The translations under genes were made by a program, and so were the position numbers. Below the pieces are notes generated by a model. It was not told where the DNA came from and ran no database searches. It worked only from the letters and a program-made list of their open reading frames with translations. Below are positions 144-59,912 of a stretch of DNA of 60,471 nt, one piece after another. The DNA comes from a virus (Duplodnaviria; Caudoviricetes): positions 1-60,471 of the IMG/VR virus record IMGVR_UViG_3300027971_000003. One strand, written 5' to 3'. Each line of letters starts with the position of its first letter. Position 1 is the stretch's first letter.

Positions 144-2624
144 TTAATCCTTTTCTACCTTGGGTTTGGATGTCTCATGCAAGAGCTTCATAGCTTCCAA
201 CTTCAACTTGCTCTTAACCTGTTCTGCCTGTGATTGTGAACGGGCTTCGCTTTGGCGCTCTTGTGATTGAACGCGAGAATCACTCTGCTGCTGTTGTGAT
301 TGAACTCTTGTAGTTTCTTTTTGCAAATCAACTTGAACGCGCTCTTTATCCAACTGCAACTTAGCTGCCGCGATCTGTGCATCTGACTGGTCTTTCTGCG
401 TCTTCCTTTGCACTTCGGATTGTTGAATCTGCACCTTGGCTTGCTCAAGCTGAAACATCGGGTCTTGGGCTTGTTGTTGTGCTTGTTGTTGTGCTGCTTG
501 TTGTTGATGGGCTTGCGTCAACTGCTTACCTGCTTCTGCTACCAACCCAGCCAGCAACACTTCAACTTCCTCTGGCAACGGCGCATCGGGTGCGGGTAGC
601 GGTGCGCCAAGCTTCTCTTCAATCTGTTTGCGGTAGCTAAAGGCCAGATGCTCTGCAATGTGCGCTTGAGATGACGCCATGATCTGCTGTGCCATCGGGT
701 TCTGACCAATAGTCTGGGCAATCATCGGGTCTTGCATGAAGCTGCTGTGCGTAGCGATGTGTGCGTCGTGGTCTTGGTAGATAAACGCTTTGACAGGTTT
801 TCCAACCAGTATTGCCATGTTCTCAGAAACAGGATCACGCGGTTTCTGATCTTCGCTTGTCGGCACAATCTTGTCCGCGTTCCTTATTCCAAGAACTTCA
901 ATCATCTGCCTGTGTAGGTATGGCAGGTCATATATCTGCGGTGCTTGTGTTGCCATCTGAAATACCGCTTGATACTGCACCACCCGTTGCGCCATTGTGC
1001 TGCTGTTAGGATCACTGACCGGTATGACATCAACCATTGCGTAGTCGGCCTTACGAGCGCGAGAAACACCTGTCTCCGGCTCATACTGATATTCCTCCGG
1101 CGCAAAGTCAGAGATGATGCCTTTGAGCAGTTTAAACTCCTGCTTCATGGCGAAGTGAACCCGAGCCTGAACAGCAGCCATCGGTTTTAGAGTTCTTTCT
1201 AACAGGGCCAGAGTCGTTCCAACCGGAGCCTGTGCGCTCATGTCGGAGATGTTCATATCACTAATCGCCCCAAGACGACGACCCTCGTCCGTGATCTTGT
1301 CCAGCAAACTCATCAAAACTTGTGACGGCTCCTTATACGGGAGCGTCATAATGTTGTCTTTAATGGCTCCACTTGGAACGTCCACATCCCTGAACTCGCC
1401 CGGAGCAATCGGTGTATCGTCACCCTTTACACGAAGACCCCTTGATTTCAATCCACCCGGCAAGTTTGATAAAGTCCCCGAATCGACTAATTGCCTGATG
1501 ATTGCTGTTCCTGCCCGAGCATATCCGCCAATAATATGAATTAACCCCAAACCGTAGAACCCAAATCCCGGTACATATACATAATGCACAAAGTGGTTGC
1601 GCTTTAATTTCAAAGTGTCATCCGGTTCCCAATTACGCCGGATAGCTAAAACCTCCCCAGTGCCTTTCTCTATAGTCACGACATAAGGCTTGGCAAGCTC
1701 CATGTCCTCGTCTTTGCTCTCTTCGTCAATCCCCGGCAAACAGCAATCAACGTGGATTTCATATAGGGTGTAGCGATCATCATTTGACAGGGTGTATCCA
1801 CCCTCTGAGGCTTTCTTCTTCTCAATGTCACTGAAAAACGTCTGTGGTTCGCCCAACTCAACATCTCTGTAAAAACCGCTGACCTGAAGCTCTTTAACTT
1901 CATTCTTGGTCTTCCGCATGATGTGTGTGACGCGTTCAGCCATCTCAATATGAGATGCACCATAAGGCACAATCACATCTTCCGCTGGGACGTAAATAGA
2001 TACTTGACGATCAAGAGTGGGGTCGTAGTAGACCTTCTTAAAAGCGGAGCCAGCCAGACCAAGGCTGTAGAGCATTCGCTCATGCTCACTGCGATACTCA
2101 ATCATTCTTTCAGTTAACTGATAATTCATGTCCTCGCTCACGCGAAGCGAAGCTTCTTCTTTCTCTTTGGTGACCCTGCCTAGAATCTTGGTCTTTACCG
2201 GCCCAGAAGCCGGAAACGTCTCGCTCATGGTCTCAGCTTGGAACCGGATGGCTGCTTCTGCCAACACGGTGGAATACACGCCACAAGCCCCGTCCCACGG
2301 CTGGGTTCTTTCCTCATACTTAAACCCTACGACCTCTAACCCTTTGGCAAAGGTATCTGCCCATTCTTTCCGAGCGTTTAGGTCAGCATCAATCTCTTCA
2401 ATTAAATCACTGGCAAATGTGGATAATTCGCTTGAATTCATTGTGTCAGCGATATTCTCGTCAAACTCGCTTTCATCTTCTTCGGAGTTTGGAATTAACG
2501 TGATTTCAACGCTGCCGTCGTCCAGTGTGACCATCTCGGGATTAACGATATCAATCTGAAGACCTTCTTCAGTCGTTTCTTCCAACCCCTGCGGTGCCTG
2601 ATATAAACTTTTATCCATGATCAA
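144..2624 (-). CDS. Portal protein (P22-like, long C-terminal coiled coil)
   Basis: 826 aa directly downstream of TerL; GFYGLGLIH and LSNLPGG motifs typical of this portal family; Q-rich helical tail. Confidence 0.85.
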   Translation of the reverse strand: MIMDKSLYQAPQGLEETTEEGLQIDIVNPEMVTLDDGSVEITLIPNSEEDESEFDENIADTMNSSELSTFASDLIEEIDADLNARKEWADTFAKGLEVVGFKYEERTQPWDGACGVYSTVLAEAAIRFQAETMSETFPASGPVKTKILGRVTKEKEEASLRVSEDMNYQLTERMIEYRSEHERMLYSLGLAGSAFKKVYYDPTLDRQVSIYVPAEDVIVPYGASHIEMAERVTHIMRKTKNEVKELQVSGFYRDVELGEPQTFFSDIEKKKASEGGYTLSNDDRYTLYEIHVDCCLPGIDEESKDEDMELAKPYVVTIEKGTGEVLAIRRNWEPDDTLKLKRNHFVHYVYVPGFGFYGLGLIHIIGGYARAGTAIIRQLVDSGTLSNLPGGLKSRGLRVKGDDTPIAPGEFRDVDVPSGAIKDNIMTLPYKEPSQVLMSLLDKITDEGRRLGAISDMNISDMSAQAPVGTTLALLERTLKPMAAVQARVHFAMKQEFKLLKGIISDFAPEEYQYEPETGVSRARKADYAMVDVIPVSDPNSSTMAQRVVQYQAVFQMATQAPQIYDLPYLHRQMIEVLGIRNADKIVPTSEDQKPRDPVSENMAILVGKPVKAFIYQDHDAHIATHSSFMQDPMIAQTIGQNPMAQQIMASSQAHIAEHLAFSYRKQIEEKLGAPLPAPDAPLPEEVEVLLAGLVAEAGKQLTQAHQQQAAQQQAQQQAQDPMFQLEQAKVQIQQSEVQRKTQKDQSDAQIAAAKLQLDKERVQVDLQKETTRVQSQQQQSDSRVQSQERQSEARSQSQAEQVKSKLKLEAMKLLHETSKPKVEKD

Positions 2625-2627
2625 TCC

Positions 2628-4136
2628 TTAATAATATGCTTGACGCCGCTTTGATTTGAAATACTTCGTTTCTTCAGGCTCATCGGACAAAGACCTAATA
2701 AAACCACCCTGTCTAAAGCGCAAAAGAGCTTGGGTGGTTGAGTCAACAAGGTCGTCATGATCCCCATGAGGGAAAGATGCACACTCCTCAACCACTTCTT
2801 CTGCCCATCGAGTAGGGGGTGCCCATACCAAACCTGAAGCAAACATATCTGATACCGCGTTTACACGGGCTATCTTATCCGAACCCTTGCCCGGGGTGTA
2901 TTCGGACATTGGAATGCCCATTTTTCGCATCTCATAGATCAAAGGAGCGCCAGCCGCCTTCTTTTCCACGATCAATGTGTCTGGATTCCACTGCTTCCAC
3001 AGCTCATAAGCTGCCTTTTTGAGGTCTGGGAACTCAATTCGCTCTTTAAAGGCGTCTAAAAGGATGATATTCGCCAATTCTTTGCCGTTATCATCCTCCT
3101 GATAGAAGATTCCCCATGTGGTGCAAGCACTAAAATCGGCTCTGTTGTGTTTTTCAAAGGCGGTATCCCAAGATTGGATGATGTAGCTGCATTTGGGGGC
3201 GTAATCATTGTCCCAAACCTTCCACATATCCCTCTTGATGATCGCCCCTTCTTCAGAGGTCGGATTTTGCTGATACTGGGCTTGCCATTTCGCTACAGGC
3301 AGCTCTGCCCTGATCGCTTCAAGCTCTTCTTTAGCCCAAAACTCAGGCCATAAAGGGGTTCCAGATGGCATCAGGGCTGGAAACTCTATGACTTCCCAAT
3401 CATCGCCGCCTCTAGCGGCGGAATGCTCAAGGATATGCCCTGTTAAATCTCGCTTTGCCCATCGGGTCATAACGAGAACAATGGCTCCTCCCGGTTGCAA
3501 CCTCTGCCTTGGGCCTGATGAATACCATTCAAAGACTTTGTCATACACATCAGGGCTATTCTGCATAGCCTCCTGCTCACTGTGTGGATCGTCAATGATT
3601 AATAGATCAGCACCCTTGCCCGTCACAGCTCCGCCAACGCCAATAGCGAAGTAATCCCCGCCAGCATGGGTATTCCACCGTCCTGCTGCCTTTGAATCTG
3701 CGGATAACTTGGTCGGAAAGACATCCTGATAATCCTGCGAACTCACCAAGTTTCTAACCTTCCGTCCAAAGCCAACCGCTAACTCGGCTGTGTGCGCGGT
3801 CTGAATAACCTTCTTCTCGGGAAACTTACCCAGAAACCATGCCGGTAACAGGTATGAGGCAAACTCAGACTTGGTATGTCTGGGCGGCATGTTGATGATT
3901 AATCGCTTTAATTCGCCACTGGCAACACGCTCAAAAGCGTTTGCCATGATCTGATGGTGCTTACCCGGTATAAAGGCTGCCCACATATCCTTAACGAAAG
4001 CCATGAAGTTATCCTGATTCATGGCTTTCTTATGCAGCTTGAAGAGCTGCCTTATCTTCTCTACCTGTTTTGACTTAGGCGGAAGAACAGTCAACAACTG
4101 ACTGTATTTTCCAAGTTCTTCTCTGGAAAGAATCAC
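2628..4136 (-). CDS. terL: Terminase large subunit
   Basis: Walker A-like MPPRHTKSE, Walker B LLIIDDPH, VMTRW, nuclease SWDTA and FPHGDHDDLVDS motifs. Confidence 0.95.
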   Translation of the reverse strand: MILSREELGKYSQLLTVLPPKSKQVEKIRQLFKLHKKAMNQDNFMAFVKDMWAAFIPGKHHQIMANAFERVASGELKRLIINMPPRHTKSEFASYLLPAWFLGKFPEKKVIQTAHTAELAVGFGRKVRNLVSSQDYQDVFPTKLSADSKAAGRWNTHAGGDYFAIGVGGAVTGKGADLLIIDDPHSEQEAMQNSPDVYDKVFEWYSSGPRQRLQPGGAIVLVMTRWAKRDLTGHILEHSAARGGDDWEVIEFPALMPSGTPLWPEFWAKEELEAIRAELPVAKWQAQYQQNPTSEEGAIIKRDMWKVWDNDYAPKCSYIIQSWDTAFEKHNRADFSACTTWGIFYQEDDNGKELANIILLDAFKERIEFPDLKKAAYELWKQWNPDTLIVEKKAAGAPLIYEMRKMGIPMSEYTPGKGSDKIARVNAVSDMFASGLVWAPPTRWAEEVVEECASFPHGDHDDLVDSTTQALLRFRQGGFIRSLSDEPEETKYFKSKRRQAYY

Positions 4137-4363
4137 AAGGCAGCAATGTTCTGCACAGAGCGGTCAGCAATCTGAACGCTTCTGAACTTATGACTCCGCA
4201 AAGACAACATGCCTTCCCGTCTCAGCTTATGCACCATCCGGTGAATATTGCTCCGAGCCTTCATGCCAAGACCCTTTGCAATATCCGCATATGAAGGCGG
4301 GAACCCGTGAATCTTCACGTAAGCTCGGATGAAGTCGTAAACCTGCGTCTGCTTGTTTGTCAT
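4133..4363 (-). CDS. LexA N-terminal-type winged-HTH DNA-binding protein (no peptidase domain)
   Basis: MTNKQTQVYDFI...HGFPPSYADIAKGLG...L..EG.L matches the LexA DNA-binding domain pattern; stop overlaps the TerL start (GTGA). Confidence 0.8.
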   Translation of the reverse strand: MTNKQTQVYDFIRAYVKIHGFPPSYADIAKGLGMKARSNIHRMVHKLRREGMLSLRSHKFRSVQIADRSVQNIAAL

Positions 4364-4375: not shown

Positions 4376-4424
4376 GTTTAAACTGCGAACGTTCGCACTC
4401 TACCTCGTTAAGCGTTTAAACGCT
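4376..4424. promoter_or_regulatory. Cluster of three palindromes upstream of the LexA-like gene (candidate operators)
   Basis: GTTTAAAC 4376-4383, TGCGAACGTTCGCA 4384-4397 and AGCGTTTAAACGCT 4411-4424 are perfect palindromes. Confidence 0.5.
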
Positions 4425-4762
4425 AATTGTTTTTTAAATATATATACGGCAAAACATATTTTTCAAATATATATACCCCCGGGGGTGGGGAAGGGAGAGA
4501 GAAGGGGGGGGTGTTTTTTAAATCGATGGGATTGGACGAGTGGATACGAGCGTAAGGCGTGAGGCGTAGGAGGTAACGCAAATCTGGGGGGTGGGGCGTG
4601 GGTGGGGCATCGCCATAGCGCCTCTAGGAACGGCTGCGCGGTGCGTCTGGCGCTGTGCGTCAGAGGGATGCGCGTCTTACAACGTATCACGCGCCTGTTT
4701 ACCCCTGAAATCATAGGGAAGAGCCTAGATTAGGCTCCTCCGCACTTTCTGCAATGCCCTGA

Positions 4763-5368
4763 TTATTGGACGCTTTCATGGGCGTCATAGGACGTTTCTC
4801 CCAGCAAATGCAGGGAAGACTCCAGCTCTGCCTTGAGTTTCTCCGTGGATATCTCCTCGACCTTGCTCTCGACCTTGTCTGTAAACATCCCGACTGCTCT
4901 GCCCATAAGCTCCAGCGCCTTGAGCTTCGCGCTGTCCTGTTTCGCGCTGTCGGCGTGTTTCTTCAGCTCTCCCATGACGTATCGACGGGTAGCGATTGCG
5001 TCATCCACAATATTTTCTGCGACACTGCTCCAGACGTCCTCGGTGAGAGCTTGTATGCGTACGTCTCGCATCAACCTATTCGCCCCCGTAATAATCAGGT
5101 GTTCTTTCCTGTCTCCTACGTTATACGCAGTGCGATACGCCTCCCTTGGACTCTTACCTTGTGCTACCAGTGACGCGAAACATCTCATCTTGGCGGTGAC
5201 AACTCTCTTCCCCTTATTCACCCCTCTTACCCTTCCATTCTTAGTCTTCTCTGGTTTACTCTCGGCGGCAGCTTGCTGTATCGCTTCGCTTATCCCATCG
5301 CTTGTATCGTTCGCAGCGAACGTGCTTTCCTCGCGTAGGATTTTCAGTTCTTCCTTGGACAATGGCAT
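4763..5368 (-). CDS. terS: Terminase small subunit
   Basis: HTH-like FASLVAQGKSPREAYRTAY and KLKALELMGRAVGMFTDKVE motifs typical of TerS; upstream of TerL; ATG 5368 chosen as start. Confidence 0.75.
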   Translation of the reverse strand: MPLSKEELKILREESTFAANDTSDGISEAIQQAAAESKPEKTKNGRVRGVNKGKRVVTAKMRCFASLVAQGKSPREAYRTAYNVGDRKEHLIITGANRLMRDVRIQALTEDVWSSVAENIVDDAIATRRYVMGELKKHADSAKQDSAKLKALELMGRAVGMFTDKVESKVEEISTEKLKAELESSLHLLGETSYDAHESVQ

Positions 5369-5780
5369 GATCTTTCCCTTCGGTCGTTTAAACACATATC
5401 AACCCTGAGTCTACCTGCTTTCCCTCTGCATCATCCATCTTTTCCCTCTGTTCTCATTCTGACCGTGTTTTATCCCTCCCTCTAGTCATCCTGAAACCCC
5501 CTCTGGAACGCATCAGGACGCGATTACAGCGTGTCTGCCCTTGTGTCTGATACCCATGCGTCAGGAGCTTTCGCCTGTTCGCCTTCGGCCTTTTAAACCC
5601 TTCCCCGCGCAGTTGCATGTTCTTCCCTCTGTGTGCAATCAGTCTTCCCTCTGATGACCTTCTGCGGCTCCCTCTGACAGCCGGTTTCCAGCGTCTCCGG
5701 CTTAACAATTCTTAACAATTTTCTTTCCTCAATCAATCAACAACTTATCGATTTTCTGGGCTTGACACTATCTTTCATGC

Positions 5781-7220: not shown

Positions 7221-7271
7221 ACCGAAACCTCCGCGAGGAGGTCTGACCGTGACGCGGTCACTGACGAGGTC
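7220..7271 (+). ncRNA. Type II hammerhead ribozyme 1
   Basis: GACC-GAAA-CCTCC gcga GGAGG-TC^-TGACCG tgacg CGGTCA-CTGACGA-GGTC: complete catalytic core, three stems, predicted cleavage after C7243. Confidence 0.9.
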
Positions 7272-7296
7272 AGCAACGTTTAAACGGAGGCTCACT

Positions 7297-7647
7297 ATGA
7301 ACAAGATCAATCTTGAATTACGTTGCACCAATCACTTTTCATCCGGCTGGGATTCACTGGATGAGTGGCAAGACATTGGCCCTGTCAAGGTGCTGGCGCG
7401 ACGCAACGTCGTGCAGGACAACGAACACCACACGGGATACAACTGGACTGAGCGCGTTGTCGTTCCCCGTGCGACCCTCGTGCGCTACGGGGCAAGGGTT
7501 ATCGAACAGGCCATCAGCAACACCCTGACCTACTCGCACTGCCGACATGACCATGACTGCTGTGGCTGTGTGTCTTACTCTGGCTATGCGGAACACAAGG
7601 GCGGCAGGGAATTCTTGGTGCGTGGTTGCGCTAGTCGTAACGTTTAA
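7297..7647 (+). CDS. Hypothetical protein with HCRHDHDCCGC metal-binding motif
   Basis: GGAGGCTCA RBS, starts MNKINL; its TAA stop lies inside a GTTTAAAC. Confidence 0.7.
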   Translation: MNKINLELRCTNHFSSGWDSLDEWQDIGPVKVLARRNVVQDNEHHTGYNWTERVVVPRATLVRYGARVIEQAISNTLTYSHCRHDHDCCGCVSYSGYAEHKGGREFLVRGCASRNV

Positions 7648-7658
7648 ACGGAGGCAGC

Positions 7659-8160: not shown

Positions 8161-8202
8161 TGCCTAGCGGAGAGGGGCAACCCTCTCTGATGTGCATTGC
8201 AG

Positions 8203-8231
8203 TTGCATCGTTTAAACCCAGATGCTATTAT
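8203..8231 (+). promoter_or_regulatory. Sigma70-type early promoter P2
   Basis: TTGCAT-N17-TATTAT with TG extension; GTTTAAAC in the spacer; preceded by a GCAA-loop hairpin at 8169-8188. Confidence 0.7.
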
Positions 8232-8258
8232 CCGTTCTCACCTACTAGGAGGCTCATC

Positions 8259-8831
8259 ATGACGACACAGACACGCGAAGAGTGGTTGAACAAATTCCTC
8301 GGGGAGATTCGCCCCGTCTTTCAATCGGCAGGGTATCCGCTGCCTGACCGTATCCGCCTCACCTGCGGCTGGCCCTCAAAGCTGGCGCGGTCTGAGGCAA
8401 AGCGCCGCATCGGTGAGCATTGGTCACCCAAGGCGTCGGACGATGCGACGCACGAGATCAGCGTCAGTCAGGTCGTAGACGATCCGTTGGAGGTTTGTGC
8501 CATCCTCGTGCATGAGCTTTCCCATGCAGCCTGTGACGGTGACGGTCACCGTGGTCGCTTCCCCAAGTGCGTCTCTGCCCTGTCTCTTGAGGGCAAGCCG
8601 TCCGCTACCATCGGTGGCACTGCGTTTAAACAGGCATACGGTGAGTTGATCGACTCGCTGGGTGCCTACCCTCACAGCCGCATCAACGTGAAGGGTGAGC
8701 AGAAGACGCAGTCAACCCGTCTCCTGCTGGCGAAGTGCAACTACTGTGGATACCCCGTTCGACTCACGAAGAAGTGGGCGGCGGCTGGTCTGCCCAACTG
8801 CTACTGCGGCGGGGCATTCACGCTGTCATAG
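8259..8831 (+). CDS. SprT-like zinc metallopeptidase
   Basis: HELSH...H..F zincin motif and C-terminal CxxC/CxCG zinc ribbon; GGAGGCTCA RBS before ATG 8259. Confidence 0.8.
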   Translation: MTTQTREEWLNKFLGEIRPVFQSAGYPLPDRIRLTCGWPSKLARSEAKRRIGEHWSPKASDDATHEISVSQVVDDPLEVCAILVHELSHAACDGDGHRGRFPKCVSALSLEGKPSATIGGTAFKQAYGELIDSLGAYPHSRINVKGEQKTQSTRLLLAKCNYCGYPVRLTKKWAAAGLPNCYCGGAFTLS

Positions 8832-8882: not shown

Positions 8883-8911
8883 AGTAACGCAACACAATGG
8901 AGGCTCACACC

Positions 8912-19471: not shown

Positions 19472-19887
19472 TGAGCGCAATGCAGTTTGAGACAGTGAAG
19501 GTGGCTCTCAAGCAGGACGCCACTGGCTTTGTCCTCACTCTGAAGATTCATCCCGACGAAATCCCAGAAGAGTTGTTGCGGGATTTTGTCGGGGCTAGAT
19601 ACATGATTGCTATGGTGCGTTTAAACGACGATGAGCAGCCGGTCAGATACAAGAGCAGGACGCAACAGGCCGGAATACTTTGCAGGGATATCAGGTTCCA
19701 CCAGTGGTTGATCGATGGTGTGAATCTGCCTGTGAAGGTTAACGAGAAGACTGCTACGGAGTATTTATACGAGACCTGTGGAATCAAATCTCGCACTGAA
19801 TTGAACGGCAATAAAGAGGCACAAAAACTATTCGATCAGATGATCGTGGAATATGACAAGTGGAGAAATGATGATGAGCCGTTTTAA
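19471..19887 (+). CDS. Hypothetical protein
   Basis: 138 aa with CGIKSRTEL motif; acidic DDEPF end. Confidence 0.65.
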   Translation: MSAMQFETVKVALKQDATGFVLTLKIHPDEIPEELLRDFVGARYMIAMVRLNDDEQPVRYKSRTQQAGILCRDIRFHQWLIDGVNLPVKVNEKTATEYLYETCGIKSRTELNGNKEAQKLFDQMIVEYDKWRNDDEPF

Positions 19888-22762: not shown

Positions 22763-23553
22763 ATATCAACACTGTCTTGAATGAATACTCAGAACACCTT
22801 GTTCACACTATCTCCAGACGCCGGTCTTTACTTGCGGTCAAACAACTTCGCAAACTGGGCAAACACGGGATACGGGAGGTCTCCGCCCATGTGCAGGACT
22901 ACATCAACAAGCGCGGGGTAACGGCGGGAACTATCAACCGAGAGCTAGGCGTCCTGCAATCCGCCCTGAGATACGCGTTTAAACGGGGCAATATAGACTT
23001 TCTGCCCATCCTTCAAAAACTGCCTTCTCCGCCCCCGCGTTCCCAGTTCTTCACTGAGGAGGACATTATCATCCTGCTTTCCCAGACCCAGAAGAACCCA
23101 GAGCTGGACAAGTTCACCCGTATCGCATTGATGACAGGTCAGCGGAAAGACGCCATCCTGAAACTGCGCTGGGATCAGATCGATTTCAAAGCCAACATAA
23201 TTGATTTTAACGACCATACAGCGCCTCTAGCCCACAGGATGAAGGGTAGGGGCATTGTGCCGATGTCCAGTGCGCTACGGGCCTTCCTGAAGGGTCTGGG
23301 AGGGGTCTCTGGCAGGGTTCTGAAGGTCAAATGCATCGACGAGCAATGGAAGACCGCCATGAGGCGGACTAAGTTTAAAGCCACTCCCCATGTCCTGCGA
23401 CACACAGTGGCTACGCAGCTTGCCCAGAAGTCCGTGCCGATGGCTCAGATCGCCAGAATCTTGGGACACCGGAATACCCAGATTACCGAACGTGTCTACG
23501 CAAAATACTCCCCGGATTTCTGCCGGGAAGCCGTCGAACACTTGAGCGTTTAA
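22759..23553 (+). CDS. Tyrosine recombinase/integrase (no N-terminal arm-binding domain)
   Basis: TGQR (catalytic R), K, HVLRH, LGH and Y; TINREL core-binding motif; ATG 22759. Confidence 0.9.
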   Translation: MNINTVLNEYSEHLVHTISRRRSLLAVKQLRKLGKHGIREVSAHVQDYINKRGVTAGTINRELGVLQSALRYAFKRGNIDFLPILQKLPSPPPRSQFFTEEDIIILLSQTQKNPELDKFTRIALMTGQRKDAILKLRWDQIDFKANIIDFNDHTAPLAHRMKGRGIVPMSSALRAFLKGLGGVSGRVLKVKCIDEQWKTAMRRTKFKATPHVLRHTVATQLAQKSVPMAQIARILGHRNTQITERVYAKYSPDFCREAVEHLSV

Positions 23554-23564
23554 ACGGGGTATAT

Positions 23565-24615: not shown

Positions 24616-24880
24616 CGCCCTATCCGACATGGGTTGCATAGTCTGTTTAAACGAGTATGGCGTTGTTTCCCAGCCCGATATCCACCACCTTACCAAGAGC
24701 GGTAAGAGGATTGACGACTTCCACACCATCCCCCTGTGTCCTACGCACCACCGGTCAGGGGTGAACAATGACTACGCTGCGTCCAGACACCCTTGGAAGA
24801 AGGAGTTTGAACGCAGGTATGGGTCAGAGCTTGACCTGTATCAGCAGGTCAAGGAGATCATTGGAGAGCGTTCTTCTTGA
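24593..24880 (+). CDS. Ref-like (P1 recombination enhancement) HNH nuclease
   Basis: GCIVC...IHH...TIPLCPTHHR...FERRYGSE motif. Confidence 0.75.
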   Translation: MKIKAWFNALSDMGCIVCLNEYGVVSQPDIHHLTKSGKRIDDFHTIPLCPTHHRSGVNNDYAASRHPWKKEFERRYGSELDLYQQVKEIIGERSS

Positions 24881-37756: not shown

Positions 37757-40044
37757 TAACTCCTTAACATCTTAATCAGTTCATCGTTTATAGAATACAC
37801 ACTACCACCAGCAGCGTATGGCGCATCCCAGCTAAAAGCATTTTTTGATCTAACAAGAGGAGTCGGCTCCTCCTTTTGCGGCGCTTGTTCTTGGCCCAGC
37901 AAAAGCCCCATTAAGAGCGAGTTTTGCTGGTTCTGTTGAGTTTGAGCAGCAGCAATAGCTGGGTCAACGGCTGGTATGGCTGGAACCAATGGCTTAACTG
38001 GAACCACAGGCTTAACCGGAACCACAGGCTTAACAGGTTTAACGGGCTTAACAGGATTAACGGGTAGCGTTGGACTGACCACAGGATTGGTCACATCATC
38101 TATCGGCATACAAGCGTTGTCCGCAAAGCTCCAAAGCATCCCCGGCCCACAGTCAGGCTCCTCTTCGTCTTCGTCACTGACGCACATATTACCGTTCCAG
38201 TGCCAACCTTCTGGGCAGGTAGTGTCTAATTCGTCGTCATCGTCATCGTCCTCGTCAACAATAACAGGATTTGTAATGACAGGTTCTTCTTCGTCGTCCT
38301 CGTCTTCCTCGTCGTCCTCGTCAACAATAACAGGATTTGTAATGACAGGTTCTTCTATGATAGGTGGTTCTATATCTAAGATAGGTTCTTTTACGATAGG
38401 TTCTTCGTCGTTTATGATAGGTGGTTCTATATCTAAGATAGGTTCTTCTATGATAGGTTTCGGTAATGGCAATGGTTCTTCTATAGGTTTTGGGTCTGGC
38501 TTAACTTCAGGCGTTGGTTCTACAGGATTGTTTACAACCACAGGTTGATTTGTGTTGGGGTCTACATAGGTAGAAGTGCCATCGCCGTTATCAATAACCA
38601 CCGGAGGTGGCGTAGGAACACCGCCCTGATCTGGCGCAGGAGTTAATGTGGTTTCTGGAGTGGTAGGTACAACAGTTGTTTCATTGGTTACTGGGTCTGT
38701 AGACGTTGTAGTGCCGTCATCATGCGTTACCACTATTGGAACGGGGGTTACGGGAGCTTCAGTTGTTGCGGTATTGACTGGGGTTTCTTCAACCGGAGGA
38801 ACGTATACAGGAGGCTGTGGAACTTCACCTTGATCCGGTGCGGGAGTTAAGGGAGTTTCCGCAGCTACCGTAGCGGCAGCGGCTTCGTCATCCGTTACCA
38901 CACCCGATGCGGCTTCTGTAGCTGTTTTACTACCTGAGTTGATTGCCTTCATTGCGGCTGAAGTAAACAGCTTTGCTGGGTCAACTTCGCCGGTCGTTAT
39001 AGCTTGGTTAATGGCTTGAGTGATAGTCGGCATCATTGACGCCGGAATGTCGAGGTCTTTAAAGACGCCCGATAATTCTTTGTTAACTTCACCAGATACC
39101 GCACCAGCCAAAAGAGCTTCTGGACTTATAGTTCCGTTCTTTACCAGTTGAGTAACTGCTTTTGATACTGTATTTGAAATGTCACTACCAATGCCAGCAT
39201 CAGTCAAAGACTGAGCAATTCCACCGCCCAGCATAGAGAACGCGCCACCTGTAATTGTACCTATACCGCCTTTAATGGCAGCGTCAAAGGGGTCTTGCCC
39301 AGACAGAGCAGCGTTTAAACCTGATGTCAGAGCGTTCTTGCCAGCAGCGCCAGCAGCGTCAGTGATGCCTTTTATTACATCGGTGGGTAATCCTTCTAAA
39401 GCAGTGCCAATTGCTGCATTTATGCCCCCAGCCGCATCCGCTAAACCTAGCCCAGCACTTGCGGCATCAGATATCGCGCCCATCATTGGGCCACCAATAG
39501 CCGACATCATTAACTTAAGTGGGACTCCGGCATCCAGCATTTTGTTTATAAAATCGCCACCGCTTCCATACGACCCAAGTCCAGAATTTTTAAAATACTC
39601 TTGAGTTACTGCATTGTGAACATTTGCGGGAAGAACATAGCCGTATTCAGGGTCATACTTTGGTTTAATGCCATATTTATTCAGAACATCGGTATAACCC
39701 TTACGGTCTAGAGACTGTCCAATTTGAAAATCGCCAGACGGGGTCGTGCCACCTACATTGCTTGAACCCCAAGAATCACCAGATTCATCCCCAGACAATT
39801 TATATTCATCTGGAACATAGCCTTGAGAACCAAAAATATTTTTACCAGACTGGTCTGCTGCGTTCATGTAATCCCACGAACTATCCGTAGGAGTCATTTT
39901 GTAAGTAAAACCGTTCTCGCTATCGCCTTGCCTTTGGTTGTTAAATATCTGTCCCGTAGAAGTATCAACAAACGCCTCTACTTTTTCCGTTCCATTTTCA
40001 CTGTCGGATTTACGGTCATATTGTGGTTGTCTGACTAATGCCAT
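37756..40044 (-). CDS. Putative virion protein with glycine-zipper, P/T/E-rich and Cys-rich segments
   Basis: Start placed at MALVRQ (40044); internal duplications; CPEGWHWNGNMC and CGPGMLWSFADNAC modules. Confidence 0.55.
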   Translation of the reverse strand: MALVRQPQYDRKSDSENGTEKVEAFVDTSTGQIFNNQRQGDSENGFTYKMTPTDSSWDYMNAADQSGKNIFGSQGYVPDEYKLSGDESGDSWGSSNVGGTTPSGDFQIGQSLDRKGYTDVLNKYGIKPKYDPEYGYVLPANVHNAVTQEYFKNSGLGSYGSGGDFINKMLDAGVPLKLMMSAIGGPMMGAISDAASAGLGLADAAGGINAAIGTALEGLPTDVIKGITDAAGAAGKNALTSGLNAALSGQDPFDAAIKGGIGTITGGAFSMLGGGIAQSLTDAGIGSDISNTVSKAVTQLVKNGTISPEALLAGAVSGEVNKELSGVFKDLDIPASMMPTITQAINQAITTGEVDPAKLFTSAAMKAINSGSKTATEAASGVVTDDEAAAATVAAETPLTPAPDQGEVPQPPVYVPPVEETPVNTATTEAPVTPVPIVVTHDDGTTTSTDPVTNETTVVPTTPETTLTPAPDQGGVPTPPPVVIDNGDGTSTYVDPNTNQPVVVNNPVEPTPEVKPDPKPIEEPLPLPKPIIEEPILDIEPPIINDEEPIVKEPILDIEPPIIEEPVITNPVIVDEDDEEDEDDEEEPVITNPVIVDEDDDDDDELDTTCPEGWHWNGNMCVSDEDEEEPDCGPGMLWSFADNACMPIDDVTNPVVSPTLPVNPVKPVKPVKPVVPVKPVVPVKPLVPAIPAVDPAIAAAQTQQNQQNSLLMGLLLGQEQAPQKEEPTPLVRSKNAFSWDAPYAAGGSVYSINDELIKMLRS
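37980..38460. repeat. Coding repeats inside the 37756-40044 gene
   Basis: Duplicated EEPVITNPVIVDEDD (about 38247 and 38313) and EPILDIEPPII (about 38359 and 38416); PVK repeats. Confidence 0.8.
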
Positions 40045-40045: not shown

Positions 40046-40696
40046 TCAAGCTCCCGGCAATGCTGAAACAAAGGACAATGTAGCAATCACAGAGGCTGTG
40101 GTTGGGCGGGTGGGGGTAACTCCGGCAGCGTAGTATTGAAGGGAGACTTGGGCATCATCCGTAGACCACCACAACTCTACATACTGGCTTGCTTGTAGCT
40201 CAACAAAGTAGTTCCAAGCTGCAATGGTATGCCCGTTTACACCGCCATGCTTATTAGGCACCGAAACAAGACTGTTAGACCCAACCACATCTGCGCCGTT
40301 TACACGCATCCAGACACTTGCATCATGTAGTTGGGTATCGGCGTTCTCAAACTGACCAGACCATTGCAGGTTATAGATACCTGCTGTAGTTACCGTTATT
40401 CTAGAGTTACTCACCACAGACACAGCATTAGAATAGTCTGTGACGTTAAACGTCATTGCGGTTGCTGTGTTTACTGTGGCGGTCTGGTCAACCCCGGACT
40501 GAAAAGCGCCATGAGGGAACTGAATATTAGCCCCGCCGTTGACGCTCAGTATGGCGTTTAAACCATTGCACAGCCTATTAAAGAACAAACGAAGCACGTT
40601 GTTAGTCTGATCTTGGTAAGCACGAGCGTAGTCATCCGTTGCTTGTGGAAGGGCGGGAGGGTCTACCTTGCGGATGTAGTTAGTGGTTGTGGTCAT
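40046..40696 (-). CDS. Putative virion protein
   Basis: N-terminal PALP...Y...NNVLRLFFN motif and beta-rich C-terminal domain; follows the nozzle gene. Confidence 0.55.
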   Translation of the reverse strand: MTTTTNYIRKVDPPALPQATDDYARAYQDQTNNVLRLFFNRLCNGLNAILSVNGGANIQFPHGAFQSGVDQTATVNTATAMTFNVTDYSNAVSVVSNSRITVTTAGIYNLQWSGQFENADTQLHDASVWMRVNGADVVGSNSLVSVPNKHGGVNGHTIAAWNYFVELQASQYVELWWSTDDAQVSLQYYAAGVTPTRPTTASVIATLSFVSALPGA

Positions 40697-51341: not shown

Positions 51342-52270
51342 TACCCGCCGCCGCTAATATACATCCGACGCGGGACAAACCGAATCGCTGCCTTTTCCCT
51401 GTCCTCACCCGCCGCAAGGTCAAACTGCTCGTTATATACCTGTTTGAGCATATCCAGACGAGGCGCTAAATCCGGCACTTTCATGGCAATGTAGTAAGCC
51501 AAGCCAGCCACAACACAAGGCAGGAACCGGAAGTTCATGTCCGCAGTCTGCACCCCAGCCCCAGCATCTTGTATCCGACGCATCCGCCAGTAGATAAACT
51601 GATAGGTCTGGGTGTTGTCCGGTGTCAGCCAAACGGTAATCGCCGGTAGATTCGGGTTGTAAATAGCCGTTCCGGTGGTGTGCGCGGCTGCTGTGGTGCC
51701 GTTCTGCGCCCTGAAAACACCGCCCAAGGTGTTACCACTCAGGTAGCCGTAGTAAATGTCCTCAGAATCGATCCTGATGAACCCAGCACCGGGAAGCCCC
51801 ACAACCGTAGACAGCGTAATGGTCGTGGTTGTGGCGGTGATTGTTCCACTCAATGTGGAGTTGGTTGGAGACAGAACGCCAGACAACCTCTGGACAAAGA
51901 CTTGAATCGGTCTGCCTTGAGCCAGCTTGTTAGGGATTGTTGCGTAGGTCGGCATACTGATGCGCGTGATGGACAGGTCAGACTGAGTAGACGCCGTGTT
52001 ACTACCGGTGCGGATCACATGATCCATCAGATCAATCGTGTCCAAGGGCAGAGCATAGGTGTTTAAACCTGCTGTCAGGGTTAGCGCACCCTGATCTATT
52101 GTCCACATATTGATGCCACGGTTCTGCCACTCGATGGTCATCAAGTTCATGGAACGACGAGCTGTCCGAAGATCGTAACCCGTCCGCATTTCCTGCCCAG
52201 CGCGTTCCCATGCCTCTTCAGCAATTTCTGCAAAGTCGAGGGTAAACCCAGTTGAGCCGGAAGTTGTCAT
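51341..52270 (-). CDS. Tail adaptor/tubular protein A-like
   Basis: EEAWERAG...ARRSMNL..EW.NRG.N.W and RFLPC..GLAYY motifs. Confidence 0.65.
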   Translation of the reverse strand: MTTSGSTGFTLDFAEIAEEAWERAGQEMRTGYDLRTARRSMNLMTIEWQNRGINMWTIDQGALTLTAGLNTYALPLDTIDLMDHVIRTGSNTASTQSDLSITRISMPTYATIPNKLAQGRPIQVFVQRLSGVLSPTNSTLSGTITATTTTITLSTVVGLPGAGFIRIDSEDIYYGYLSGNTLGGVFRAQNGTTAAAHTTGTAIYNPNLPAITVWLTPDNTQTYQFIYWRMRRIQDAGAGVQTADMNFRFLPCVVAGLAYYIAMKVPDLAPRLDMLKQVYNEQFDLAAGEDREKAAIRFVPRRMYISGGG

Positions 52271-56877: not shown

Positions 56878-56908
56878 AGCAGGAGGGGCGTTTAAACCCC
56901 TCCCTTGA
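56878..56908 (-). terminator. Hairpin after the MCP stop with GTTTAAAC at its apex
   Basis: GGAGGGG...CCCCTCC stem; weak U-tract. Confidence 0.5.
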
Positions 56909-58471: not shown

Positions 58472-58921
58472 TTAAGCTCCGGTGCCAAAAGTAACTTTAG
58501 TCCGGTGGTCTTTGAAAAGTGGCATCCGTGGATCGTTTTCCCGCATAAGGTTGTTATCCACAGACTGCATTTGTTTATCCGTTTGATCTTTGAAATACGC
58601 TCTCCGATCATCCGTTATTTCCGTTGGCATCTTGCAAAGCATGAGGCCACCTATCACGACGTTGTCCTTAAACCGTTCGTTCTCAACAGCCGACAGGAAA
58701 ATCTCGGGGTGATCTACAGCTTTAACAGGCTCCCAACCTTCACGAAGCTTAAGGGAAACATTCATGGGGTCAGCTTCACCACGGGTACTTAGGCGCACCC
58801 AGCGAAAGTCATATCCGGCCTCGGGGTTGGGACTAGGCAATACATCTGGCTTAATCCAACTACGTTTCCGCTCTGTCTTTTCACGGGTCTCTAATTCACG
58901 AGCAACTCTGTTCTCAGCCAT
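58472..58921 (-). CDS. Conserved head-module protein
   Basis: RWVR...REGWEPV...GGLMLC motif. Confidence 0.6.
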   Translation of the reverse strand: MAENRVARELETREKTERKRSWIKPDVLPSPNPEAGYDFRWVRLSTRGEADPMNVSLKLREGWEPVKAVDHPEIFLSAVENERFKDNVVIGGLMLCKMPTEITDDRRAYFKDQTDKQMQSVDNNLMRENDPRMPLFKDHRTKVTFGTGA

Positions 58922-59912
58922 TTTGTTTCCTCATATCTTCAGCAACCTGTTTGGCGTAAAGTTCCAACGGAAGTCCCAACCGTTTAGCTAGGGCAACTTG
59001 TGTCTTCGTCAGCGTGATTTTTCTGGGCGCAACGCTGCGGGTTACAGGTGCCACTACGTTATTTCTACGACGCGGTTCCGCTGGTTCATCTGCTCCCTCA
59101 AAATTATCGGGGAAGACTTGGTGCATACGAGAGTTGATCTTCTCGTAGTATTCGTCAGATTGAGGGCTGACGCCCTGTTTCACCAGTTTCTGGTGCAACC
59201 CCAAGGCAAAACTTGTCATCTCATCATCAGGCCCAAACCACGGATTGTTTTGTTGCCAATCCAAAGCCTTTGAATCTACGACCGCTTGTGGGGCGTTTAA
59301 ACGAGCTTCTACATTACTCTCAGGTTCTTGTAAAGAGGGTAAAGTAAAATTATTTATCTTGTCCGCTTTGATCTTGGCGGAAGTGAATTCTTCCTGCGCC
59401 TTAATAATAGCGTCTGGATCACCCGCTTCATAAGCTTGTTTATAGCGATATTTAGCTACATTAATTTCGCCCGTTACTTCCTTTTTAGCTTGCTCAAGAA
59501 GAACTTTTTGATTCTCGTTAACAGCGCCTTTAAGCTGTTTATTCTCTTCGACAAGCTGTTGAGCAATCCGTAGGGCTTCTTCTTTCTCCCTCTGGGCTGA
59601 CTCTGCAAGGCGACGCTGGTCGTGGAATCCTTTGCTGAAGTGTTTAAGGCGTTTGCGGGTTTTCTCCGAGTAACTCTCAAGCTCTTCGTCGGTGATTTCA
59701 TCGGGTTGTTTAGACTGCTTTTTGCCTTGATCTTCCTTGGGGGTGTCATCAATCACCTCAATTTCGACTTTAGGTTCTTTGGCGGGTTCTTCCGTTTGTG
59801 TGGAAGCCAAGCCTTCAACGACGATTTGAATACTATCTTCGCCCTCCACAGCCGGTTGATTCTCTGGTTTTTCGGGGTCTGGAAACTCAAACTCTACTTT
59901 TTCAAAAGCCAT
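58914..59912 (-). CDS. Capsid scaffolding protein
   Basis: Acidic coiled coil, NPWFG, C-terminal LT..QV..AKRLG...E.YAK. Confidence 0.75.
   Translation of the reverse strand: MAFEKVEFEFPDPEKPENQPAVEGEDSIQIVVEGLASTQTEEPAKEPKVEIEVIDDTPKEDQGKKQSKQPDEITDEELESYSEKTRKRLKHFSKGFHDQRRLAESAQREKEEALRIAQQLVEENKQLKGAVNENQKVLLEQAKKEVTGEINVAKYRYKQAYEAGDPDAIIKAQEEFTSAKIKADKINNFTLPSLQEPESNVEARLNAPQAVVDSKALDWQQNNPWFGPDDEMTSFALGLHQKLVKQGVSPQSDEYYEKINSRMHQVFPDNFEGADEPAEPRRRNNVVAPVTRSVAPRKITLTKTQVALAKRLGLPLELYAKQVAEDMRKQNG

What the first reader, a model, noticed from the sequence alone, without database searches (positions are those of the whole stretch)
1130..59302. Highly iterated palindrome GTTTAAAC across the phage genome
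Seen: at least 44 exact copies by manual count, starting at 1130, 4376, 4414, 5386, 5788, 7278, 7642, 8210, 8624, 9336, 10987, 11474, 13150, 13546, 14535, 14827, 15064, 15382, 17272, 17523, 19619, 20270, 21787, 22049, 22977, 23548, 24645, 26231, 26544, 27974, 28218, 28592, 28778, 29990, 30524, 31295, 32291, 32397, 36131, 39313, 40556, 52061, 56890 and 59295. About one is expected by chance. Most have a 5' C and many extend to CGTTTAAACG. Copies occur in different reading frames (RLN/CLN, FKx, V-stop), in promoter spacers, just before RBSs and in a terminator hairpin, so peptide bias alone does not explain them. Known: phages usually avoid palindromes; cyanobacterial HIP1 is the closest analogue. 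Inference: a DNA-level code read by a phage or host protein (coating, protection, ejection or recombination). No methyltransferase gene is evident.
Basis: partly seen in the sequence, partly recalled or inferred. Interest (0 to 1): 0.88.

Follow-up and report, generated by a model that had tools for sequence, protein, structure and literature searches.

The report
Iterated GTTTAAAC sites in aquatic phages
This phage genome carries 44 copies of the eight-base palindrome GTTTAAAC, written even into the silent positions of its genes, and the same word marks hundreds of related and some unrelated uncultured water phages, so it is very probably a protein-binding signal whose reader and purpose are still unknown.

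Summary
In detail: 44 exact GTTTAAAC copies at the listed coordinates against about 1 expected. The excess is at DNA level. Shuffling synonymous codons leaves 2.7 of the 36 in-ORF copies, and 36 of 50 places where the protein sequence allows the word carry it.

It is a lineage trait. About 100 IMG/VR relatives (GC 40-56%) share it, complete genomes hold 21-46 copies, and TerL relatives outside the clade have none. Positions turn over between distant members but are kept between close ones.

Copies are 3-5 times enriched in non-coding DNA and 3-7 times rarer in the structural module. They peak at 9 per kb just upstream of a 76-aa LexA-N-terminal-like winged-helix gene fused to the terminase operon, often beside GAACGTTC. 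That gene co-occurs with the motif.

A second, unrelated WhiB-encoding actinophage lineage has the same YGTTTAAACR word but no such gene.

Best reading: a dispersed operator-like binding site, stoperator- or HIP1-like. No methyltransferase was found.

The parts
1130..1137 (.). GTTTAAAC copy in portal gene (EFKL frame)
   Evidence: not conserved in L001-L004
4376..4383 (.). GTTTAAAC copy, 5' leader of the winged-helix gene (12 nt lie between it and the start codon)
   Evidence: conserved in L001-L003, L109
4385..4396 (.). GCGAACGTTCGC palindrome between the two leader copies (composite operator)
   Evidence: GAAC-N0/4-GTTC within 150 nt upstream of the winged-helix gene in 35 of 77 non-redundant loci
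4414..4421 (.). GTTTAAAC copy (AGCGTTTAAACGCT) in the same leader
4437..4466 (-). promoter-like TTGAAA-18-TATATT upstream of the two leader copies
   Evidence: consensus match only
4136..4363 (-). 76-aa stand-alone LexA-N-terminal-domain-like winged-helix protein; ORF end overlaps the TerL ORF start; candidate reader
   Evidence: Pfam PF01726 E 5e-13; PDB LexA chains E 1e-9; found in 28 of the 30 closest TerL loci and 0 of 50 further ones
2628..4136 (-). terminase large subunit
4763..5395 (-). terminase small subunit-like ORF; its GTG start lies inside the copy at 5386
   Evidence: phrog_51 E 2.8e-9
5386..5393 (.). GTTTAAAC copy
   Evidence: conserved in L002
5788..5795 (.). GTTTAAAC copy, intergenic, just downstream of a promoter-like site
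7278..7285 (.). GTTTAAAC copy (TFKR)
7642..7649 (.). GTTTAAAC copy giving the stop GTT-TAA of ORF 7117-7647, followed by GGAGG
8210..8217 (.). GTTTAAAC copy 49 nt upstream of the likely start of the SprT-like gene
8259..8831 (+). SprT-like metalloprotease with C-terminal zinc ribbon; the one specific gene shared with the second motif-rich lineage
8624..8631 (.). GTTTAAAC copy (AFKQ)
9336..9343 (.). GTTTAAAC copy in MoxR/CobS-like AAA gene (RLNK)
10987..10994 (.). GTTTAAAC copy (RLNG); same position in G001
11474..11481 (.). GTTTAAAC copy (AFKH)
13150..13157 (.). GTTTAAAC copy (RLNT)
13546..13553 (.). GTTTAAAC copy (RLNE)
14535..14542 (.). GTTTAAAC copy in primase-helicase
14827..14834 (.). GTTTAAAC copy in primase-helicase; same position in G001 and G002
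15064..15071 (.). GTTTAAAC copy in primase-helicase
15382..15389 (.). GTTTAAAC copy in primase-helicase
17272..17279 (.). GTTTAAAC copy, intergenic, downstream of RusA
17523..17530 (.). GTTTAAAC copy in RusA; same position in G001
19619..19626 (.). GTTTAAAC copy (RLND)
20270..20277 (.). GTTTAAAC copy, intergenic between convergent ORFs
21787..21794 (.). GTTTAAAC copy (KFKQ)
22049..22056 (.). GTTTAAAC copy (EFKQ)
22977..22984 (.). GTTTAAAC copy in tyrosine recombinase gene
23548..23555 (.). GTTTAAAC copy: stop codon of the recombinase gene and spacer of promoter-like TTGAGC-16-TATGAT
24645..24652 (.). GTTTAAAC copy in Ref-like RecA-dependent nuclease gene
26231..32404 (.). 11 GTTTAAAC copies inside the 2962-aa polyvalent protein gene, starting at 26231, 26544, 27974, 28218, 28592, 28778, 29990, 30524, 31295, 32291 and 32397
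36131..36138 (.). GTTTAAAC copy (GLNV)
39313..39320 (.). GTTTAAAC copy (GLNA)
40556..40563 (.). GTTTAAAC copy (GLNA)
52061..52068 (.). GTTTAAAC copy in a structural gene; same position in G002
56890..56897 (.). GTTTAAAC copy in the loop of an inverted repeat downstream of the capsid gene
59295..59302 (.). GTTTAAAC copy (RLNA)

Best explanation
GTTTAAAC, more fully YGTTTAAACR, is a dispersed binding site for a sequence-specific DNA-binding protein. Selection keeps it at roughly one copy per kb in the non-structural two thirds of the genome.

Some copies act as classical operators. They lie in promoter spacers, at transcription starts and in 5' leaders. The clearest case is a composite operator (GTTTAAAC, GAACGTTC, GTTTAAAC) in front of the late operon that begins with a 76-aa LexA-N-terminal-like winged-helix gene, followed by the terminase and portal genes.

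The many copies inside genes would then work like mycobacteriophage stoperators: extra landing sites that let the same protein block or mark the genome as a whole.

In this lineage the most likely reader is the phage's own winged-helix protein, which would also regulate itself.

Shown here: the DNA-level selection, the spread across lineages, the turnover of positions, the regional bias, the hot spot at the winged-helix promoter, and the co-occurrence with that gene. Inferred: that a protein binds the word, which protein it is, and that the effect is repression or roadblock.
For: DNA-level selection:
- Synonymous shuffles give mean 2.67 (largest 8 of 1000) against 36 observed in ORFs.
- 17 of 26 [RGSC]LN and 19 of 24 xFK[LPHQR] places carry the word, against 0.48 and 1.8 expected from codon usage.
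- The peptides themselves are 2-3 times enriched.
- Synonymous shuffles fall equally short in all six further genomes tested.

Conservation:
- Purifying selection at short range: 16 of 21 site comparisons are conserved in relatives, against 22% of other 8-mers.
- Complete genomes hold 21-46 copies (44, 43, 36, 39, 46, 21) at GC 40-55%, although few positions are shared.

Operator-like placement:
- 64 of 272 copies in seven genomes are not fully inside ORFs, although only 4-13% of the DNA is non-coding.
- In 77 non-redundant loci the 100 nt before the winged-helix start hold 66 copies (9.0 per kb), with preferred offsets, while the next 1.2 kb hold 0-0.4 per kb.
- 33 loci pair the word with GAAC-N0/4-GTTC there.
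- In the second lineage it sits between TTGACA-like and -10-like hexamers upstream of the SprT-like gene in 7 loci.

Link to the winged-helix gene:
- It was found in 28 of the 30 closest TerL loci and in 0 of 50 more distant, motif-free ones.
- All 94 loci with His at aligned position 45 have at least one copy.
- The eight loci with Lys, Met or Glu there hold 8 copies in 60 kb. In the two with Met or Glu (L028/G006, L027) GTGTAAAC/TKTAAAC is among the most enriched words; L009 and L010 (Lys) enrich CGTTTACA; the other four show none.
- A third variant of the protein in G007 goes with GAACGCATATGCGTTC, 14 copies in 14 kb.
- The protein is a true LexA DNA-binding-domain homologue.
Against: - A second, unrelated phage lineage has the same word with the same Y/R flanks: G016 43 copies in 33.9 kb, G017 42 in 19.8 kb. 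A profile search found no winged-helix homologue in G016, G017 or G020, nor in the L199-L316 pattern-scan loci that include its other fragments. G016 is only 84% complete.
- The link between gene and motif is confounded by shared descent: both follow the TerL tree.
- LexA-type domains of Gram-positive bacteria read GAAC half-sites (recalled, not tested). The protein may therefore bind the GAACGTTC element rather than GTTTAAAC.
- Two 4-bp half-sites with no spacer are an awkward target for two winged helices.
- Stoperators are asymmetric, oriented and intergenic, whereas 36 of 44 copies here are inside genes, 11 of them in one late-looking virion gene.
- No binding experiment exists.
Confidence: 0.4

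Rival explanations
1. The word is read by a host protein. This would be a transcription factor, a nucleoid protein or a defence or repair component shared by low-GC aquatic Actinobacteria. Unrelated phages of those hosts have each acquired many copies to exploit or satisfy that host protein. The phage winged-helix protein would bind something else, for example GAACGTTC.
For: - Two phage lineages share the same 8-mer, the same Y(-1)/R(+8) flanks and about the same copy number, although their TerL proteins are only about 24% identical.
- The second lineage encodes WhiB, a sigma factor and other actinophage genes. Its TerL is 49% identical to those of Streptomyces podophages.
- It resembles the cultured Planktophila phages described in PMC10202952 (whole text read; not compared by sequence).
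- The window shares with it an SprT-like gene that among cultured phages is almost confined to actinophages: Arthrobacter 70, Microbacterium 42 and Streptomyces 9 of 125 records.
- No winged-helix gene was found in the second lineage.
Against: - Motif-rich contigs span GC 31-56% (the window's clade 40-56%, L255 at 31%), and dense metagenome contigs of unknown kinship 27-54%, so one host specificity would have to be conserved across very different hosts.
- Soil actinophages with the SprT-like gene or a related TerL have 0 copies: Maureen, Zeta1847, WRightOn.
This is weak evidence.
- The host of the window is not known, and no host genome could be searched.
Confidence: 0.3
2. The word is the target of a DNA modification or restriction-related process, or the product of a mutational drive as proposed for cyanobacterial HIP1. 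A methyltransferase or hypermodifying enzyme marks it, and biased repair or selection for protection multiplies it.
For: - It is an 8-bp palindrome of restriction-site type.
- Occupancy of synonymous opportunities is near saturation: 36 of 50 in the window, 173 of 258 in six genomes.
- The second lineage carries genes typical of DNA hypermodification clusters (dNMP kinase, amidoligase, glutamine amidotransferase, glycosyltransferase). That these genes are typical of such clusters is recalled from the literature.
- The window has a glycosyltransferase-like ORF.
Against: - No methyltransferase, Vsr-like or restriction gene was found in some 60 ORFs of the window scanned against Pfam or PHROGs.
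- One-mismatch neighbours are not depleted overall: 32 observed against 21 expected.
- Density depends on the region, and copies hold fixed offsets at promoters, which a blind drive would not give.
Confidence: 0.12
3. The copies are hot spots or control sites for DNA transactions rather than for transcription. Possible roles are Chi-like protection against the host helicase-nuclease, start points for the phage's own recombination (ERF, exonuclease, RusA, Ref-like nuclease), priming sites, or recognition sites that license phage DNA for the terminase.
For: - The genome encodes a full recombination set.
- The candidate reader gene overlaps the TerL start and keeps that place in about 100 loci.
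- About one copy per kb on both strands suits a genome-wide process.
- P1, which also encodes Ref, is known to be rich in Chi sites (recalled, not checked here).
Against: - Known Chi and uptake sequences are asymmetric and oriented.
- G011 has 36 copies, but tblastn with the window's primase-helicase found no homologue in it.
- G001 has no hit to the window's tyrosine recombinase.
- Enrichment in promoter spacers and leaders is not expected for these roles.
- Density is lowest in the 24-kb structural block, which must also be replicated and packaged.
Confidence: 0.1
4. The excess is a by-product of codon or peptide usage, of base composition, or of assembly or library artefacts.
For: The word can only be read in two frames, and the peptides RLN and FK[QR] recur.
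Against: - Dinucleotide shuffles give 1.04, codon-order shuffles 0.80 and synonymous shuffles 2.67, against 44 or 36 observed.
- 8 copies are non-coding.
- The same sites occur in independent metagenome contigs.
- The reversed word is absent from eight of the ten tested clade records and occurs once in each of the other two.
Confidence: 0.01

Closest known systems
Stoperators of Cluster A mycobacteriophages (L5-type immunity repressor sites)
   Same: Dozens of copies of one short site are spread over a roughly 50-60 kb phage genome. One or a few double as promoter operators. Site and repressor variants differ between related phages (abstract of PMC9283540 and listing of PMC6550527; the rest recalled).
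   Different: Stoperators are 13-14 bp, asymmetric, oriented with transcription and mostly intergenic, and a two-domain monomeric repressor reads them.
HIP1 (GCGATCGC) of cyanobacterial chromosomes
   Same: An 8-bp palindrome at about one per kb, in coding and non-coding DNA, shaping codon and amino-acid choice.
   Different: HIP1 belongs to cellular chromosomes and contains methylated CGATCG (abstract of PMC6604393). Here the carriers are phages, no methyltransferase was found, the density depends on the genome module, and copies hold fixed places at promoters.
LexA repressor and SOS boxes
   Same: The candidate reader is homologous to the LexA DNA-binding domain. A GAAC/GTTC palindrome lies in its promoter.
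   Different: The protein has only 76 residues and no S24 cleavage and dimerisation domain. Its proposed target is a spacer-less 8-mer present about 40 times per genome, not a 14-16 bp box in front of a few genes.
Chi, DNA uptake sequences and KOPS (over-represented oriented octamers)
   Same: Short words kept at high density by selection for a DNA-processing protein, embedded in coding sequence.
   Different: Those words are asymmetric and strand-biased and belong to cellular chromosomes. This one is palindromic and phage-borne.

Membership tests
Stoperator-type dispersed repressor sites | Many near-identical copies of one site spread over the phage genome | tested here: met
   44 copies in the window; 21-46 in six complete relatives
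Stoperator-type dispersed repressor sites | Asymmetric 13-14 bp site whose orientation follows transcription | tested here: not met
   8-10 bp palindrome. The TKTAAAC variant in G006 occurs in both orientations, 15 + and 25 -
Stoperator-type dispersed repressor sites | Sites lie mainly in short intergenic gaps | tested here: not met
   36 of 44 are inside ORFs. Non-coding DNA is nevertheless 3-5 times enriched
Stoperator-type dispersed repressor sites | Bound by the phage's own repressor, which also controls a promoter operator | not testable with these tools
   Candidate winged-helix gene with 9 copies per kb in its own leader; no binding data
HIP1-type highly iterated palindrome | 8-bp palindrome far above every null model, in coding and non-coding DNA | tested here: met
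HIP1-type highly iterated palindrome | Property of the cellular chromosome | not testable with these tools
   The host is unknown and no host genome was reachable.
HIP1-type highly iterated palindrome | Cognate methyltransferase acting within the palindrome | tested here: not met
   No methyltransferase family hit in some 60 ORFs of the window. A host enzyme cannot be excluded
LexA family (for ORF 4136-4363) | N-terminal winged-helix DNA-binding domain | tested here: met
   PF01726 E 5.1e-13, 49 bits against a cut-off of 23.7; profile hits to LexA chains 3k2z, 8s7g, 1lea
LexA family (for ORF 4136-4363) | C-terminal S24 self-cleaving and dimerisation domain | tested here: not met
   The protein ends after 76 residues, with its stop next to the TerL start
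Chi / uptake-sequence type oriented octamers | Asymmetric word with strand bias | tested here: not met
   The word is its own reverse complement
SprT-like metalloprotease (for ORF 8259-8831) | HExxH zinc site in a small metalloprotease fold | tested here: inconclusive
   HELSH is present in the window's copy but lost in the second lineage and in some clade members. Some homologues carry PF10263. Pfam gave no hit for the window's own copy. The fold matches abylysin only weakly, E 0.04

The most novel reading that the evidence does not exclude
A phage-encoded self-marking system. A minimal LexA-domain protein, expressed with the terminase, reads about 40 copies of a spacer-less palindrome that selection has written into the silent positions of the phage's own genes. 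By binding them it switches off or labels the whole non-structural part of the genome, for late shut-off, superinfection immunity or licensing of phage DNA for packaging. Reader and word would co-evolve into specificity groups (GTTTAAAC, TKTAAAC, GAAC-N8-GTTC), and the word has spread or arisen again in an unrelated actinophage lineage.
Probability: 0.22. Interest if true: 0.85.

Novelty: new variant of a known kind. Interest (0 to 1): 0.72.

Why it matters
Phages normally purge short palindromes, and this one does so strongly. Yet it keeps one octamer at about 40 times expectation and pays for it with rare codons and changed amino acids.

The same word marks hundreds of uncultured aquatic phage contigs and two unrelated lineages. 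It is therefore a widespread, unrecognised layer of information in abundant freshwater and marine phages, probably phages of the dominant low-GC Actinobacteria.

If a phage protein reads it, this is a compact genome-wide control or self-recognition system with an easily assayed site, since PmeI cuts the word. If a host protein reads it, the word is a new handle for host prediction and for finding an unknown actinobacterial DNA-binding activity.

Four full-text searches found no paper describing it.

Tried and rejected
- Codon, peptide and composition explanations are rejected by the shuffles.
- Assembly artefact is rejected. The 127-base end repeat holds no copy, and the sites recur in other assemblies.
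- Primase recognition site is weakened. G011 has 36 copies, but tblastn with the window's primase-helicase found no homologue there.
- Integrase site is rejected. G001 has 43 copies and no hit to the window's recombinase.
- The SprT-like protein as reader was considered because it is the only specific gene shared with the second lineage. It was set aside because the family is common in Arthrobacter, Microbacterium and Streptomyces phages; the two SprT-carrying ones tested (Maureen, Zeta1847), and WRightOn, chosen for its related TerL, have 0 copies, and its active site is not conserved.
- The winged-helix protein as small terminase subunit was set aside, because a separate TerS-like ORF exists.
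- -1 frameshift signal (U UUA AAC) was considered and dropped. Only 17 of 36 coding copies are in that frame, and the word is palindromic and also intergenic.
- Short-range spacing showed no obvious preferred phase.
- Host search: relatives cannot be drawn for a virus record. The TerL scan of GTDB genomes gave six MAG contigs of mixed phyla at 56-66% identity, outside the motif clade and probably mis-binned phage. There is no tRNA.
- No close cultured relative was found by DNA or by the winged-helix protein.
- Complex prediction of TerL with the winged-helix protein gave no verdict, score 0.00. It counts neither for nor against binding.
- Supplementary files of PMC10202952 (host nucleases, phage gene tables) were not seen and might bear on host restriction systems.
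- Not used: the search of protein representatives, the protein-atlas search, the look-up of sequencing runs, read laying.

Full report
THE OBSERVATION

The window is a complete 60,471-base phage genome; it is the only contig of its assembly. Its two ends share 127 bases, the mark of a circular assembly.

Dinucleotide-preserving shuffles give 1.04 (sd 0.93, largest 4). Markov models of order 1 and 3 give 0.99 and 2.73. It is the commonest 8-mer of the genome, and the next palindromic 8-mer has 6 copies.

The same genome avoids ordinary palindromes strongly. GCCGGC, TGCGCA, CCATGG, GCGCGC, CTGCAG, GTCGAC and many other hexamers are absent although 4-19 copies are expected.

The flanks extend the word weakly to GCGTTTAAACGC in the window (C at -1 in 29 of 44). 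Pooled over relatives the extension is YGTTTAAACR.

IT IS WRITTEN AT DNA LEVEL

I made a greedy ORF map of 83 ORFs covering 96% of the genome. On this map:
- 36 copies lie inside ORFs. 17 read xGT-TTA-AAC and 19 read xxG-TTT-AAA-Cxx.
- 8 are intergenic or at gene edges, and two of them supply a GTT-TAA stop.

Null models for the in-ORF copies:
- Shuffling synonymous codons within each gene, which keeps every protein and each gene's codon usage, leaves 2.67 copies on average (largest 8 in 1000 shuffles).
- Shuffling codon order leaves 0.80.
- Of 26 [RGSC]LN tripeptides, 17 are spelled with the word (0.48 expected). Of 24 suitable xFK[LPHQR] tetrapeptides, 19 are (1.8 expected).
- These peptides are themselves 2-3 times commoner than in shuffled proteins, so amino-acid sequence has also given way.

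The same shuffle falls short in the six other genomes tested.

THE GENOME

By PHROGs and Pfam the phage encodes:
- Packaging and structure: portal, large terminase, a TerS-like ORF, capsid and tail-fibre genes.
- Replication and recombination: a T7-type primase-helicase, RusA, a PD-(D/E)XK nuclease, ERF, a Ref-like nuclease and a tyrosine recombinase.
- Others: a MoxR/CobS-like AAA protein with a VWA partner, and a 2962-aa polyvalent protein with three ADP-ribosyltransferase stretches and LPD38.

No methyltransferase, restriction enzyme or Vsr-like gene appeared in some 60 ORFs scanned (the same calls).

The nearest named phages by TerL are:
- at 52-57% identity, phage 023Pt_psg01, the Pelagibacter phages HTVC027P and HTVC023P, and DSL-LC04;
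- at 46%, Synechococcus and Planktothrix phages.

Nothing matches at DNA level.

A LINEAGE TRAIT WITH TURNOVER

I looked at 80 IMG/VR loci found with TerL:
- GTTTAAAC is the top palindromic octamer in 21 of the 30 closest (TerL 68% identity or more, GC 40-56%).
- It reaches at most 2 copies in the other 50.

Whole records:
- Inside the clade: 43, 36, 39, 46 and 21 copies in genomes of 56-65 kb, and 24 and 40 in fragments of 32 and 46 kb.
- TerL relatives outside the clade: 3, 1 and 0 copies.
- The reversed control word is absent from eight of the ten clade records searched and occurs once in each of the other two, G012 and G015.

Between distant clade members most positions differ. One search lists 5 shared positions against 19 window-only and 12 G001-only, and 2 shared against 7 and 8 for G002. 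Some rows are duplicated there by repeated domains.

Between close relatives (about 65-90% DNA identity) 16 of 21 site comparisons are conserved, against 22% of all other 8-mers in the same alignments (the relatives are not independent of each other).

So the copies are kept by selection, are replaced over longer times, and their number stays in a narrow range.

WHERE THE COPIES SIT

In six genomes:
- The structural block (terminase to tail, 23-28 kb) has 0.12-0.30 copies per kb; the rest has 0.54-1.09.
- Occupancy of synonymously reachable places is 26 of 59 in the structural block and 147 of 199 elsewhere (Fisher p 3e-5).

This could reflect function, stronger protein and codon constraint in highly expressed genes (TTA is a rare codon), or recent module exchange. 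I could not separate these.

In seven genomes 64 of 272 copies are not fully inside ORFs, although only 4-13% of the DNA is non-coding.

One-mismatch relatives of the word are mildly enriched rather than depleted (32 against 21 expected in the window). GTGTAAAC, ATTTAAAC and CTTTAAAC stand out in several genomes.

A CANDIDATE READER

Directly upstream of TerL, with its ORF end overlapping the TerL ORF start, lies a 76-aa ORF (4136-4363, minus strand). It is a stand-alone LexA DNA-binding domain (PF01726, E 5e-13; profile hits to LexA structures) with no cleavage or dimerisation domain.

Co-occurrence with the motif:
- It was found in 28 of the 30 closest TerL loci and in none of the 50 others.
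- A profile scan found more than 580 such loci in IMG/VR.
- Of 103 loci examined, all 94 with His at aligned position 45 carry the word.
- The eight loci with Lys, Met or Glu there hold 8 copies in 60 kb. In the two with Met or Glu (L028 = G006, L027) GTGTAAAC is among the most enriched words, and G006 has 40 TKTAAAC in 31.7 kb in both orientations. L009 and L010 (Lys) enrich the related CGTTTACA; the other four show no such word.
- A more distant homologue in G007 goes with a third word, GAACGCATATGCGTTC: 14 copies in 14 kb, mostly at gene starts.

The hot spot at its promoter:
- In 77 non-redundant loci the 100 nt before the start codon hold 66 copies (9.0 per kb), at preferred offsets (-8, -15, -20, -45, -58). 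The gene itself and most of TerL hold almost none.
- In 35 of 77 loci a GAAC-N0/4-GTTC palindrome lies in the same 150 nt (background 0.03). 33 of those also have GTTTAAAC, often 8 nt away.
- In the window the order on the coding strand is: promoter-like TTGAAA-18-TATATT, GTTTAAAC, GCGAACGTTCGC, GTTTAAAC, 12 nt, ATG.

This is the anatomy of an autoregulated operator.

WHAT WEAKENS THAT READING

A scan of IMG/VR for two copies 20-50 nt apart (119 loci) brought up a second group of contigs with up to 3-4 copies per kb:
- G016 has 43 copies in 33.9 kb (84% complete), G017 42 in 19.8 kb, G018 31 in 17.4 kb and G020 37 in 17.4 kb. The copies are concentrated in the early region.
- Its TerL is only about 24% identical to the window's but 49% identical to those of Streptomyces podophages.
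- It encodes WhiB, a sigma-70 region-4 protein, dNMP kinase, a Toprim primase, a DnaB-like helicase, an amidoligase, a glutamine amidotransferase and a glycosyltransferase.
- In size, GC content and gene content it resembles the Planktophila (acI) phages E7 and F5 described in PMC10202952 (whole text read). I did not compare sequences.

The flanking rule is the same in both lineages: Y at -1 in 78% and 84% of copies, R at +8 in 75% of both. In seven loci of the second lineage a copy sits between a TTGACA-like and a -10-like hexamer upstream of the first early gene. Yet a profile search found no winged-helix homologue in G016, G017 or G020, nor in the L199-L316 pattern-scan loci that include its other fragments.

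The one specific gene shared by the two lineages is an SprT-like protein with a zinc ribbon (window 8259-8831). That family is common in Arthrobacter, Microbacterium and Streptomyces phages. The two SprT-carrying ones tested (Maureen, Zeta1847) have no copy at all, and neither does WRightOn, which was chosen for its related TerL and in which a profile search found no SprT-like homologue.

The shared word in unrelated phages of probably related hosts keeps a host-encoded reader in play. No host genome could be reached with the tools. That is only weak evidence.

VERDICT

The best-supported mechanism is a dispersed operator-like protein-binding site. It is closest in logic to mycobacteriophage stoperators and closest in form to cyanobacterial HIP1, but it fails defining features of both:
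- Against stoperators: it is palindromic, not oriented, and mostly inside genes.
- Against HIP1: it is phage-borne and no methyltransferase was found.

The phage's LexA-domain protein is the leading candidate reader in this lineage, at perhaps one chance in three. A host factor is nearly as likely. Modification-linked and recombination or packaging roles remain possible.

Four full-text searches found no description of this motif.

Noticed in passing
whole window: Extreme avoidance of ordinary 6-bp palindromes. 26 of the 64 palindromic hexamers are absent, several of them with 10-19 copies expected (GCCGGC, TGCGCA, CCATGG, GCGCGC, CTGCAG, GTCGAC, TCCGGA, CCGCGG and others). AGCGCT has 2 copies against 25 expected and AACGTT 5 against 21. 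This suggests a host rich in restriction systems.
   Followed up: no
window 4437-4720 (minus strand): About 280 nt of apparently non-coding DNA between the TerS-like ORF and the winged-helix gene. It contains C-rich runs, a CCCCCGGGGGTATATATA element and a block like TTACGCTCGTATCCACTC. These recur upstream of the same gene in many relatives, and several contigs start here. It could be a packaging or regulatory region or an RNA.
   Followed up: partly
window 24858-33746 (-): A 2962-aa polyvalent protein with three ART-PolyVal stretches, LPD38 and DUF7178. It is probably a virion-delivered multi-enzyme. It carries 11 of the 44 copies.
   Followed up: partly
L104 (G007), whole 14.3 kb: A TerL relative carries 14 copies of a 16-bp palindrome, GAACGCATATGCGTTC, mostly at gene starts. 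It also has a divergent LexA-domain gene next to TerL.
   Followed up: partly
G005 (L098-L100) 18.5-28 kb; G004; G003: Other relatives have their own iterated words. G005 has CATAACAWTGTTATG about 9 times, nearly all intergenic. G004 has AACCCCGC 27 times. G003 has ACTTGGCGACA 8 times.
   Followed up: no
L317/L318 (G016), L204 and related loci: A second, roughly 40-kb WhiB-encoding phage lineage has the same motif at 1.3-3 copies per kb. It also has about 1.2 kb of apparently non-coding DNA between TerL and the first early gene, and three motif-bearing repeats about 50 nt apart at G016 14353-14463.
   Followed up: partly
window 8259-8831 and A3 alignment: In the SprT-like/zinc-ribbon family the HExxH motif is lost in several members, while the C-terminal KQSTRLLK...C..C...RLT...P.C block stays conserved. 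The conserved job may not be proteolysis.
   Followed up: partly
window 8160-12359: The block SprT-like, MoxR/CobS-like AAA, 350-aa ORF, VWA protein has hits in five of the six other motif-rich clade genomes compared; in the 51%-complete G002 the 350-aa ORF gave no hit. It is absent from the three motif-free TerL relatives.
   Followed up: no
L348 (metagenome contig, 1.2 kb): Nine GTTTAAAC copies in 1.2 kb, including a run of four 63 nt apart. It looks like a tandem array built around the word.
   Followed up: no
window 1-127 and 60345-60471: The two ends are identical over 127 bases. Relatives flagged as having terminal repeats show 123 or 127. This is most likely an assembler overlap and not a physical terminal repeat.
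   Followed up: partly
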